Source: a virus (lineage: Duplodnaviria > Heunggongvirae > Uroviricota > Caudoviricetes). Taken from it: 38,307 bases of DNA. Each line of letters begins with the position of its first letter. Position 1 is the first letter of the stretch. This document shows positions 9,439-9,771 of this stretch, piece after piece. A program made the position numbers and the translations under genes. The stretch lies in the IMG/VR virus record IMGVR_UViG_2859827302_000002; one strand, written 5' to 3'. Under the pieces are notes generated by a model. It was not told the DNA's origin. It made no database searches and was given only the letters and a program-made list of their open reading frames with translations.

Positions 9439-9771
9439 ATGAAAATGAAAAGAAATCTTCCGTTAATTATTTTGTTGTCTTCTCTGGTTATGGGCTGTAC
9501 GCAACATAAAACAGATATGCCCCGACAGTTGGTTAAGGCATTACCACAATATCCGGCCTATGCAGCGGCAAATTATATAAAGGGACGGGTTGATGTGAGG
9601 TTTGATATTGGTGCTGATGGTACTGTCACCCGAATTGAGTTTATTCGTTCAGAGCCGCACCATCTGTTTGATGAGCAGGTTGTAAAGGCGATGGCAAAAT
9701 GGCGATTTGAGAAGGACAGGCCGTGTAAAGGCGTGAAGAAAACGTTTATCTTTAGTCCTTCCGCACCCTGA
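9439..9771 (+). CDS. AT-rich moron: lipoprotein with TonB C-terminal-like domain
   Basis: Signal peptide plus lipobox LVMGC; C-terminal RVDVRFDIGADGTVTRIEFIRSEPHHLFDEQVVKAMAKWRF resembles a TonB_C fold; AT-rich upstream leader. Confidence 0.55.
   Translation: MKMKRNLPLIILLSSLVMGCTQHKTDMPRQLVKALPQYPAYAAANYIKGRVDVRFDIGADGTVTRIEFIRSEPHHLFDEQVVKAMAKWRFEKDRPCKGVKKTFIFSPSAP

What the first reader, a model, noticed from the sequence alone, without database searches (positions are those of the whole stretch)
9439..9771. AT-rich moron encoding a lipoprotein with a TonB C-terminal-like domain
Located after Rz/Rz1 where morons commonly sit, with a lipobox (LVMGC) and a TonB_C-like segment. A prophage lipoprotein mimicking TonB could interfere with TonB-dependent receptors and so with superinfection or colicin uptake, by analogy to known exclusion lipoproteins; this is inference.
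Basis: inference. Interest (0 to 1): 0.45.

Follow-up and report, generated by a model that had tools for sequence, protein, structure and literature searches.

The report
Prophage lipoprotein made of TonB's C-terminal domain
A common E. coli prophage cargo gene encodes a small outer-membrane lipoprotein that is essentially the receptor-binding end of the host energy-coupling protein TonB without its motor-coupled part; it probably jams TonB-dependent uptake of phages and bacteriocins, but nobody has tested this.

Summary
ORF 9445-9771 (+; alternative ATG at 9439) encodes a 108-aa protein. It has a lipoprotein signal peptide (LVMG|C, Thr at +2), a 7-residue linker and a complete TonB C-terminal domain. 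Evidence for the domain: Pfam TonB_C E 9e-15, a gapless match to E. coli TonB 153-231, and an AF2 model that superposes on TonB bound to BtuB or FhuA (TM 0.88).

The gene lies in a 604-bp, 43% GC insert between a complete Rz/Rz1 spanin pair and ylcI/HNH/terminase in a lambdoid E. coli prophage. A related phage lacks the insert.

The gene is under purifying selection: dN/dS is 0.11 against the phage-21 allele, and 80 of 80 viral-contig copies are intact. It is also common: this allele is in 415 and the phage-21 allele in 1225 of 5426 complete E. coli genomes.

Databases call it "TonB family protein"; PHROGs calls it "Rz-like spanin", probably wrongly. I found no functional study.

Related small lipoproteins are syntenic chromosomal genes in Raoultella and Klebsiella, and another sits in a chromosomal setting in Serratia. 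The phage therefore probably borrowed a host gene rather than inventing a mimic.

The protein lacks TonB's membrane anchor and proline-rich spacer, so it cannot transduce energy. That role is plausible but unproven.

The parts
9292..9895 (.). Moron module: a 604-bp insert of low GC (43%), bounded by AAC at both junctions, absent from the otherwise collinear phage vB_EcoS-569R3
   Evidence: Alignment with L002; exact junctions and GC content; composition profile
9385..9412 (+). Promoter-like site: ATGACC, 16-nt spacer, TG-extended -10 TGTTAGAAT. The block ATTGTyAGAATAAGAC around the -10 is conserved in phage 21, where the rest of the upstream region has diverged. Function not shown.
   Evidence: Consensus scan found 3 sites against 1.9 expected, so it is weak on its own; conservation against phage 21
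9434..9438 (+). Shine-Dalgarno-like GGGGA, 6 nt upstream of ATG 9445
   Evidence: Read from the sequence; phage 21 has AGGA at the equivalent place, annotated there as an RBS
9445..9771 (+). CDS of 108 aa: a lipoprotein consisting of a TonB C-terminal domain (an alternative in-frame ATG lies at 9439). RefSeq product name: 'TonB family protein'
9445..9498 (+). Lipoprotein signal peptide MKRNLPLIILLSSLVMG plus the lipidated Cys18 (9496-9498). Thr at +2 predicts sorting to the outer membrane under the E. coli +2 rule
   Evidence: Read from the sequence; Cys invariant and no Asp at +2 in 14 homologues. Lipidation and localisation are inferred, not shown
9520..9762 (+). TonB_C domain, residues 26-106, equivalent to E. 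coli TonB 153-233. Predicted helix-strand-strand-helix-strand order (two short N-terminal helical turns in the model), including the YP motif (Y36-P37) and the conserved aromatics F53, F75, W86, F88 and F103
   Evidence: Pfam/TIGRFAM; PDB sequence alignment; AF2 model with block-mean pLDDT 78-92 over the domain; Foldseek hits 2gsk_B and 2grx_C with TM 0.88; alignment with TonB
8642..9106 (+). Context: i-spanin Rz, with the o-spanin Rz1 embedded at 8874-9044. The lysis cassette is complete without the TonB_C gene
   Evidence: phrog_13 E 4e-72 and phrog_3198 E 5e-28
9903..10103 (-). Context: convergent YlcI/YnfO (DUF3950) gene. It lies a near-constant 138-160 bp from the TonB_C stop codon in the 77 of 80 viral contigs where it was found

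Best explanation
What is shown. A 604-bp AT-rich moron in the late region of a lambdoid E. coli prophage lies between the Rz/Rz1 spanins and ylcI/HNH/terminase. It encodes a 108-aa protein with a lipoprotein signal peptide, a 7-residue linker and one complete TonB C-terminal domain. The protein has no TonB transmembrane anchor and no proline-rich spacer. The gene is conserved by purifying selection and is common in E. coli.

What is inferred. [quoted passage not shown] It cannot couple to ExbB/ExbD, so it cannot deliver energy. It most likely acts as an energy-uncoupled competitor in the TonB pathway. It could occupy the Ton boxes of TonB-dependent transporters. It could capture the Ton boxes of incoming group-B colicins or microcins. 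It could also pair with host TonB through the exposed beta3 edge.

The predicted result is lower sensitivity of the lysogen, or of the infected cell, to TonB-dependent phages (T1/phi80 type), colicins and microcins, at some cost in siderophore and B12 uptake.

Expression is probably both from a weak promoter of its own in the lysogen and by read-through of the Q-antiterminated late transcript. Both are inferred.

I put the identity and anatomy at about 0.95. The confidence of 0.45 given for this explanation applies to the interference mechanism.
For: The best structural matches are TonB as bound to the BtuB and FhuA Ton boxes (2gsk_B, 2grx_C; TM 0.88, rmsd 1.4-1.8 A).

The protein is not a full TonB. 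The NCBIfam TonB equivalogs score 49-74 bits against cutoffs of 265-448, and they match only residues 22-105 to the C-terminal end of the models.

Lipobox, invariant Cys and non-Asp +2 residue. Moron status.

Selection: dN/dS is 0.11 with dS 1.6 against phage 21. Among 80 intact IMG/VR copies, 19 variable codons are synonymous and 8 mostly conservative nonsynonymous.

Prevalence and placement: 415 and 1225 of 5426 complete E. coli genomes carry the two alleles. The gene sits next to other envelope morons, bor in phage 21 and iss plus a porin in ATCC 11775.

The position between lysis cassette and packaging genes is the same in three diverged phage lineages. The promoter-like -10 block is conserved against phage 21.

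Precedents: overexpressed periplasmic TonB domain inhibits TonB-dependent iron import, and a Ton-box pentapeptide reduces colicin killing and phi80 infection (PMC9841981, citing Howard 2001 and Tuckman and Osburne 1992). Llp and Cor are inner-leaflet outer-membrane lipoproteins that bind the periplasmic face of FhuA.
Against: There are no functional data for this gene. Ten full-text searches found nothing.

The anchor is at the domain's N-terminus with only 7 linker residues. In TonB that end leads away from the outer membrane, from my knowledge of 2GRX/2GSK. The canonical docking pose under a barrel may therefore be strained.

TonB Q160 and R166, implicated in Ton-box and FhuA contacts (from my knowledge), are Leu and Tyr here.

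Homologues at 38-47% identity are ordinary chromosomal genes in Raoultella, Klebsiella and Serratia. A constitutive TonB inhibitor in a chromosome would be odd, so the native role may be different.

No terminator follows the gene, and the promoter match is weak. PADLOC has no matching defence family.

Many phage-21-type copies in the protein database carry frameshifts that remove beta3, for example P0012 with 130 member sequences. The gene is therefore dispensable in many prophages.
Confidence: 0.45

Rival explanations
1. The protein is an envelope fitness factor unrelated to blocking TonB. It keeps whatever role the chromosomal small TonB_C lipoproteins of Klebsiella, Raoultella and Serratia have, for example tethering the outer membrane to peptidoglycan or stabilising outer-membrane proteins. 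The prophage carries it as a lysogenic-conversion gene like Bor/Iss.
For: Syntenic chromosomal orthologues lie in lacZ-lacI-(glycine-zipper protein)-TonB_C-DUF1440 in Raoultella and Klebsiella, and between a ykgJ-like gene and dsbB/nhaB in Serratia. The phage protein is closer to these than to TonB. It sits beside bor/iss in phage 21 and ATCC 11775.
Against: No such role is documented for the TonB_C fold in what I could search. The best sequence and structure matches are true TonB domains that bind Ton boxes. The core TonB residues are retained: the YP motif and F180, F202, W213, Y215 and F230 equivalents.
Confidence: 0.3
2. The protein has a late, lytic-cycle function rather than a lysogen function. 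It is made from the late transcript and alters the envelope at or before lysis. It could be a spanin-like lysis accessory, as the PHROG label suggests, or it could switch off TonB-dependent receptors so that the dying cell or its debris does not take up competitors.
For: The gene is on the same strand as the lysis and packaging genes and immediately downstream of the lysis genes, with no terminator-like site between Rz and the gene. PHROG 1267, labelled 'Rz-like spanin', matches at E 1e-42. T5 Llp is made shortly after infection.
Against: A complete Rz/Rz1 pair is present upstream. The gene is absent from otherwise collinear phages and is separated from Rz by anything from 336 to 2063 bp. The protein has a TonB_C fold rather than a short proline-rich o-spanin, so the PHROG label probably comes from adjacency and the lipobox. 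The phage 21 annotators, who annotated its spanins separately, call the homologue a TonB C-terminal domain protein.
Confidence: 0.1
3. The protein is a working alternative TonB or a positive cofactor that energises or assists a particular receptor, increasing iron uptake by the lysogen.
For: Annotation as 'TonB family protein' or 'protein TonB' in several records. The domain is complete.
Against: There is no transmembrane anchor and no proline-rich spacer. The N-terminus is a lipoprotein signal peptide. Full-length TonB models score far below their cutoffs. Without ExbB/ExbD coupling there is no route for energy, from established knowledge of the Ton system.
Confidence: 0.03
4. The ORF is a decaying fragment of a captured tonB gene with no function.
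For: Older annotations call it a 'partial tonB-like membrane protein' or 'TonB fragment'. Some phage-21-type copies are frameshifted.
Against: dN/dS is 0.11 at saturated dS. All 80 copies are intact, with 19 synonymous and 8 nonsynonymous variable codons. A lipoprotein signal peptide is precisely fused to the domain boundary and conserved across homologues at 34-97% identity. Identity to E. coli TonB is only 36%, so this is not a recent fragment of the host gene.
Confidence: 0.02

Closest known systems
C-terminal domain of E. coli TonB (residues about 150-239; PDB 1U07, 2GSK chain B, 2GRX chain C)
   Same: Same domain family and fold. The alignment is gapless over TonB 153-231 at 36-38% identity. 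The YP motif and conserved aromatic core are retained, as is a beta3 strand at the equivalent position.
   Different: No N-terminal transmembrane helix, no proline-rich spacer and no last 6-7 residues. It is anchored by an N-terminal lipid, predicted in the outer membrane, instead of a helix in the inner membrane. TonB Q160 and R166 are Leu and Tyr.
Recombinant periplasmic TonB fragments that act as dominant-negative inhibitors (Howard, Herrmann, Stratilo and Braun 2001, J Bacteriol 183:5885)
   Same: A TonB C-terminal portion delivered to the periplasm without energy coupling. Such fragments are reported to inhibit FhuA- and FecA-dependent transport (title, and summary in PMC9841981).
   Different: Those were laboratory constructs, soluble and overexpressed. 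This is a natural, lipid-anchored, phage-borne gene only 36% identical to TonB, and its effect is untested. I could not read the original paper.
T5 Llp and the Cor proteins of phi80/N15-type prophages
   Same: Small phage-encoded lipoproteins of the inner leaflet of the outer membrane that act on a TonB-dependent transporter (FhuA) from the periplasmic side to exclude phages. Same general kind of gene and same predicted compartment.
   Different: Unrelated sequence and fold. There was no significant match in the viral structure library, and no Pfam hit other than the two TonB C-terminal families TonB_C and TonB_2. Llp and Cor are specific for FhuA, whereas a TonB_C decoy would in principle touch every Ton-box protein.
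Bor/Iss lipoproteins of lambdoid prophages
   Same: Outer-membrane lipoprotein morons at the same genomic spot, just after Rz/Rz1. They are adjacent to the TonB_C gene in phage 21 and in E. coli ATCC 11775.
   Different: A different protein family, on the opposite strand. Bor/Iss is annotated with a role in serum and complement resistance that is unrelated to TonB.
Chromosomal small TonB_C lipoproteins of Raoultella, Klebsiella and Serratia (uncharacterised)
   Same: Same architecture (lipobox, short linker, one TonB_C domain, 108-111 aa) at 38-47% identity. They share the family signatures YAxAN, SEPxHLFD and KWRFE.
   Different: They sit in ordinary chromosomal neighbourhoods rather than prophages. 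Their function is also unknown.

Membership tests
TonB_C domain (Pfam PF03544 / TIGR01352) | Profile match above the curated cutoff | tested here: met
   PF03544 scores 55.3 bits against 24.6. TIGR01352 scores 55.1 against 27.1.
TonB_C domain (Pfam PF03544 / TIGR01352) | Helix-strand-strand-helix-strand fold superposable on solved TonB C-terminal domains | tested here: met
   AF2 model with block-mean pLDDT 78-92 over the domain. Foldseek top hits are 2gsk_B, 2grx_C and 1u07_A, with TM 0.82-0.88 and rmsd 1.4-2.1 A. This is a predicted structure, not a solved one.
TonB_C domain (Pfam PF03544 / TIGR01352) | Conserved YP motif and aromatic core (TonB Y163-P164, F180, F202, W213, Y215, F230) | tested here: met
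   The equivalents are Y36-P37, F53, F75, W86, F88 and F103. Y36, F75 and W86 are invariant, and P37 and F103 nearly invariant, in the 14-member family alignment. The list of important TonB residues is from my own knowledge.
TonB energy transducer (full-length TonB, NCBIfam PRK10819 equivalogs) | N-terminal transmembrane anchor that couples to ExbB/ExbD | tested here: not met
   The N-terminus is a lipoprotein signal peptide ending in LVMG|C. The equivalog models match only their C-terminal 80-odd positions, scoring 49-74 bits against cutoffs of 265-448.
TonB energy transducer (full-length TonB, NCBIfam PRK10819 equivalogs) | Proline-rich periplasm-spanning spacer | tested here: not met
   Only 7 residues (TQHKTDM) lie between Cys18 and the first domain residue P26.
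Bacterial lipoprotein, Lol-sorted to the outer membrane | Positively charged n-region, hydrophobic h-region and a lipobox [LVI][ASTVIM][GAS]C | tested here: met
   The sequence reads MKR / NLPLIILLSSL / VMG-C. The Cys is invariant across 14 homologues, all with a lipobox. I had no dedicated predictor such as LipoP or SignalP.
Bacterial lipoprotein, Lol-sorted to the outer membrane | No Asp at +2 (the E. coli inner-membrane retention signal); actual acylation and localisation | tested here: inconclusive
   The +2 residue is Thr, and it is Thr, Ser or Ala in all homologues, which fits outer-membrane sorting. Acylation and localisation cannot be tested with these tools.
Moron (independently acquired extra gene in a phage genome) | Present or absent between otherwise collinear phage genomes | tested here: met
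   A 604-bp indel against vB_EcoS-569R3, with flanks about 98% identical.
Moron (independently acquired extra gene in a phage genome) | Base composition different from the surrounding genes | tested here: met
   43% GC against 54.4% for the window and 52-56% for the flanks.
Moron (independently acquired extra gene in a phage genome) | Own promoter and terminator | tested here: inconclusive
   A promoter-like extended -10 lies at 9405-9412, partly conserved in phage 21, but the scan is barely above chance. No terminator-like hairpin was found, and the 3' region folds no better than shuffles (z -0.13).
Spanin (PHROG 1267 label 'Rz-like spanin') | Partner of an i-spanin; a short proline-rich o-spanin lipoprotein required for outer-membrane disruption | tested here: not met
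   A separate, complete Rz/Rz1 pair is present. The protein is a TonB_C domain. The gene is dispensable in related phages. A lysis phenotype was not testable.
Llp/Cor superinfection-exclusion lipoproteins | Sequence or fold similarity to Llp/Cor | tested here: not met
   No significant hit in the viral structure library (0 hits at E<=0.001). Pfam and PHROG hits are to TonB_C families only.
Llp/Cor superinfection-exclusion lipoproteins | Binds a TonB-dependent transporter and excludes phage | not testable with these tools
   This needs expression and phage or colicin challenge, or binding assays.

The most novel reading that the evidence does not exclude
A lipid-anchored TonB C-terminal domain, tethered under the outer membrane, acts as a general Ton-box cap. 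A single 108-aa prophage protein, carried as one of two alleles by 7.6% and 22.6% of sequenced E. coli and sitting beside iss/bor, would then lower sensitivity to the whole class of TonB-dependent phages, group-B colicins and siderophore-microcins. Its chromosomal relatives in Klebsiella, Raoultella and Serratia would be endogenous brakes on TonB-dependent transport. That would be a new, receptor-independent mode of exclusion and a new layer of control of iron uptake.
Probability: 0.3. Interest if true: 0.7.

Novelty: new variant of a known kind. Interest (0 to 1): 0.5.

Why it matters
TonB-dependent transporters are the entry points for many coliphages, colicins, microcins and siderophore-antibiotic conjugates. 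A widespread prophage gene that damps the whole pathway would affect phage therapy host range. It would also affect bacteriocin-based competition in the gut and susceptibility to Trojan-horse antibiotics, and it would carry an iron-uptake cost relevant to virulence. The gene is common in pathogenic lineages: it occurs in Stx1a phages, and next to iss in a prophage of the E. coli type strain ATCC 11775. It is small, and it comes with a sharp, cheap experimental test. If the hypothesis fails, the chromosomal homologues still define an uncharacterised family of outer-membrane lipoproteins built on the TonB_C fold.

Tried and rejected
1. Spanin reading. The PHROG 1267 label 'Rz-like spanin' is rejected, because a full Rz/Rz1 pair lies upstream and the protein is a TonB_C domain.

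2. Iron regulation. The best Fur-box match near the promoter is 13 of 19 at 9410, one of 11 positions in the window scoring 13 or more. It lies in AT-rich DNA and is not conserved in phage 21. I treat it as a weak lead only.

3. Intrinsic terminator after the gene. None was found by the scan, and 9765-9910 folds no better than shuffles.

4. Known defence systems. PADLOC gave nothing meaningful.

5. Other viral proteins with this fold. BFVD gave no significant hit.

6. Wider genomic survey. The 14-sequence alignment was too diverse for the pattern search, so I repeated it with 7 sequences.

7. The viral-contig scan returned only near-identical copies at 97-100%. It was useful for intactness and context but not for diversity.

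8. Literature. Ten full-text searches found no functional study of this gene. The phage 21 genome announcement does not mention it. Howard et al. 2001 is not held in the library, so I cite it only through its title and a secondary summary.

9. Co-folding the protein with a Ton-box peptide or FhuA was not possible, because outside sequences are not accepted by the structure tool.

Full report

Yes. On the + strand an ORF ends at the TGA at 9769-9771, with possible starts at GTG 9430, ATG 9439 and ATG 9445. ATG 9445 is the likely start:
- a GGGGA Shine-Dalgarno (9434-9438) lies 6 nt upstream of it;
- RefSeq annotates the 108-aa form (WP_000828072);
- the phage 21 homologue has only this ATG.

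The product is MKRNLPLIILLSSLVMG|CTQHKTDM-PRQL...FIFSPSAP.

The rest of the protein is a complete TonB C-terminal domain, not merely a TonB-like segment:
- Pfam TonB_C scores 55.3 bits against a gathering score of 24.6 (E 9e-15).
- TIGR01352 gives E 7e-15.
- phmmer against PDB sequences gives E about 1e-15 to the TonB C-terminal domains, with a gapless 79-residue alignment to E. coli TonB 153-231.

An AlphaFold2 model built from 7 family sequences has a mean pLDDT of 76, with 10-residue block means of 78-92 over the domain. It shows the expected helix-strand-strand-helix-strand order. Foldseek against the PDB ranks first the TonB domains crystallised on BtuB (2gsk_B; TM 0.88, rmsd 1.8 A over 79 columns) and on FhuA (2grx_C; TM 0.88, rmsd 1.4 A).

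**2. Surroundings**

The window is a lambdoid long-tailed E. coli prophage. It carries holin, lysozyme, Rz, HNH, terminase, capsid, a J-type tail tip, Lom and tail fibres. The best matches are E. coli chromosomes at 99.7-99.8% identity.

Upstream lie the i-spanin Rz (8642-9106, phrog_13, E 4e-72) and the embedded o-spanin Rz1 (8874-9044, phrog_3198, E 5e-28). The lysis cassette is therefore complete without this gene. Downstream are a convergent YlcI/YnfO gene, an HNH endonuclease and the terminase.

The gene lies in a stretch of 43% GC, against 54.4% for the window. Phage vB_EcoS-569R3 is collinear on both sides but lacks window 9292-9895. This is a 604-bp indel with AAC at both junctions. 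The moron description therefore holds for presence/absence and for composition.

A promoter-like site with a TG-extended -10 (TGTTAGAAT, 9404-9412) lies 33 nt before the start codon. The scan as a whole is barely above chance (3 sites found against 1.9 expected). However, the 16-nt block around the -10 is conserved in phage 21, where the rest of the upstream region has diverged. No terminator-like structure follows the gene. None separates it from Rz either, so late transcripts should read through it.

**3. Is it a working gene?**

The phage 21 allele is 72% identical in DNA and 71% in protein. Between the two alleles dS is 1.6 and dN is 0.19, giving dN/dS of 0.11 (0.09 over the domain alone).

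In 80 viral contigs carrying the window-type allele, every copy is full length. Of 27 codon changes seen among them, 19 are synonymous, and the 8 amino-acid changes are mostly conservative. This rules out a decaying tonB fragment.

The gene is also common. The window-type allele occurs in 415 of 5426 complete E. coli genomes and the phage-21-type allele in 1225 of 5426. Carriers include Stx1a-converting phages and phage JLK-2012 (window type), phages 21, ev017 and Perceval (phage-21 type), and the E. coli type strain.

A caveat: the protein database also holds frameshifted phage-21-type copies that lack the last strand, for example P0012 with 130 member sequences. The gene does decay in some prophages.

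**4. Where does it come from?**

Three diverged phage lineages all carry the gene between the lysis cassette and the packaging genes. They are the window type, the phage 21 type (71% identity) and a Klebsiella phage (41%). In phage 21 and in E. coli ATCC 11775 it sits beside bor/iss, another outer-membrane lipoprotein moron.

An exhaustive profile-free search found further lipoproteins of 107-133 aa with the same architecture. A scan of one genome per species placed several of them in ordinary chromosomal settings:
- In four Raoultella and two Klebsiella species the gene is syntenic, in the order lacZ, lacI, glycine-zipper protein, TonB_C lipoprotein, and then DUF1440 and DUF1722 where those genes were detected.
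- In Serratia grimesii it lies between a ykgJ-like gene and dsbB/nhaB.

The window protein is 45-47% identical to these, against 36% to E. coli TonB. It shares family-specific motifs with them: YAxAN, SEPxHLFD and KWRFE.

The Klebsiella phage carries both a TonB_C lipoprotein (56% to the Raoultella copy) and a DUF1440 gene (61%). This fits capture of a chromosomal segment. The phage gene is therefore best seen as a borrowed member of an uncharacterised host lipoprotein family, not as a freshly truncated tonB.

**5. How it most likely works**

Shown:
- The protein is one TonB C-terminal domain on a lipoprotein signal peptide with a 7-residue linker.
- It has no transmembrane anchor and no proline-rich spacer. 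Full-length TonB models score 49-74 bits against cutoffs of 265-448 and match only at their C-terminal ends.

Established background, from my own knowledge: TonB needs its N-terminal helix to couple to ExbB/ExbD, and its C-terminal domain binds the Ton box of transporters by strand pairing with beta3.

Inferred:
- There it can bind what TonB binds but cannot pull.
- The simplest consequence is competition. It could bind the Ton boxes of transporters, the Ton boxes of incoming group-B colicins or microcins, or TonB itself through the exposed strand edge.

Precedents:
- Overexpressed periplasmic TonB domain inhibits TonB-dependent iron import (Howard et al. 2001, as summarised in PMC9841981).
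- A Ton-box pentapeptide reduces colicin killing and phi80 infection (Tuckman and Osburne 1992, same source).
- T5 Llp and the prophage Cor proteins are inner-leaflet outer-membrane lipoproteins that bind the periplasmic face of FhuA to exclude phage.

I put this mechanism at about 0.45.

Points against it:
- There is no experiment on this gene.
- The lipid anchor is on the end of the domain that in TonB points away from the outer membrane, with a short linker, so the canonical docking pose may be strained (my knowledge of 2GRX/2GSK).
- TonB Q160 and R166 are Leu and Tyr here.
- The existence of chromosomal orthologues suggests a housekeeping role that need not be inhibitory.

**6. Rivals**

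- An envelope fitness factor unrelated to TonB blockade, inherited from the chromosomal family (0.3).
- A late, lysis-associated role (0.1). The PHROG label 'Rz-like spanin' is probably an annotation carried over from position and lipobox.
- A working alternative TonB (0.03). This is excluded by the missing anchor.
- A dead fragment (0.02). This is excluded by selection.

**7. Comparison with what is known**

The protein is a member of the TonB_C domain family; all tested features are met. It is not a TonB energy transducer, because the anchor and spacer were tested and are absent. It is not a spanin. It is not related in sequence or fold to Llp/Cor, although it may work in the same compartment on the same class of targets.

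Databases already name it 'TonB family protein', 'TonB C-terminal domain protein' or 'partial tonB-like membrane protein'. The sequence feature itself is therefore not new. Ten full-text searches found no functional study.

**8. Verdict**

The gene is real, selected, very common and uncharacterised.

If the decoy idea is right, it is a new variant of the known kind 'phage lipoprotein that disables TonB-dependent entry routes'. It would act on the shared Ton box rather than on one receptor. Interest is moderate (0.5): it is not a categorical surprise, but it is a sharp, cheap hypothesis about a gene found in a large share of E. coli genomes.

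Noticed in passing
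PHROGs family phrog_1267 (matched by window 9445-9771): The PHROG family that holds this TonB_C lipoprotein is labelled 'Rz-like spanin' (E 1e-42). The window has a separate, complete Rz/Rz1 pair, so the label looks like an annotation error that will spread to phage genome annotations.
   Followed up: yes
L006-L011 (Raoultella and Klebsiella spp.), about 5998-6333 in each; L013 5992-6318 (Serratia grimesii): Small TonB_C lipoproteins of the same architecture are syntenic chromosomal genes in Raoultella and Klebsiella (lacZ, lacI, glycine-zipper protein, TonB_C lipoprotein, then DUF1440/DUF1722 where detected). In Serratia the gene lies next to dsbB/nhaB. This is an uncharacterised host family. 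It evolves faster than its neighbours: 66-95% identity against 87-98% for LacI.
   Followed up: partly
L005 (Klebsiella phage ST13-OXA48phi12.4) 277-903 and 3968-4336: This phage carries both a DUF1440 membrane protein (61% to the Raoultella chromosomal copy) and the TonB_C lipoprotein (56%). These two genes are neighbours in the Raoultella and Klebsiella chromosomes, which suggests capture of a chromosomal segment.
   Followed up: partly
window 9410-9428: A Fur-box-like 13 of 19 match (AATAAGACTTATTTTTATC) lies just downstream of the putative -10. It is one of 11 positions in the window scoring 13 or more, but it lies in AT-rich DNA and is not conserved in phage 21.
   Followed up: partly
window 1-654 (+) and 5205-6023 (-), with 6059-6361 (-): There are two IS3-family-type transposase genes (rve integrase core; the second also has HTH_21). 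One is cut by the window start. The other is inserted between the DUF6645/SASA esterase gene and the DUF826/holin genes, interrupting the late region upstream of the lysis cassette.
   Followed up: no
window 2180-2429 and 3200-4894: Three phage tRNA genes (Met-CAT, probably the Ile2 type as annotated in a near-identical genome, plus Arg-TCG and Arg-TCT) are followed by a 564-aa SASA-esterase/DUF6645 protein. This is the arrangement typical of EHEC lambdoid prophages at the position where stx sits in Stx phages.
   Followed up: no
window 1081-2130: An N6/N4 DNA methyltransferase gene (PF01555, E 7e-44) lies upstream of the tRNA genes.
   Followed up: no
window 33658-34257, 34316-35881, 35922-36479, 37369-37617 (-): Other accessory and host-range genes are present: an Ail/Lom outer-membrane protein, a tail fibre with collagen repeats and a Peptidase_S74 intramolecular chaperone, a Gp38-like adhesin, and a DinI-like protein on the opposite strand.
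   Followed up: no
L104 (E. coli ATCC 11775) 854-4827; L004 (phage 21) 2227-3327: The phage-21-type allele sits directly after iss/bor. In ATCC 11775 it lies in the same late region as a prophage porin gene. This makes a cluster of three envelope-modifying cargo genes around the lysis cassette.
   Followed up: partly
Proteins P0010, P0012, P0013, P0017-P0019, P0021 (phage-21-type allele): Several recurrent frameshift variants replace the last beta strand with unrelated sequence; P0012 alone stands for 130 member sequences. Either the gene decays in cryptic prophages, or there is a hotspot near codon 90-95.
   Followed up: no
L012 (Modestobacter excelsi contig of 418 bp): A 418-bp contig in an actinobacterial assembly encodes the N-terminal 67 residues of this enterobacterial phage protein at 69% identity. 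It is probably contamination of that assembly.
   Followed up: no
L024-L103 (80 IMG/VR contigs): The distance from Rz to the TonB_C gene varies from 336 to 2063 bp. The distance to the downstream ylcI gene is almost fixed at 138-160 bp. The spot between Rz and this gene is therefore itself a hotspot for further insertions, and the TonB_C gene travels with ylcI.
   Followed up: partly
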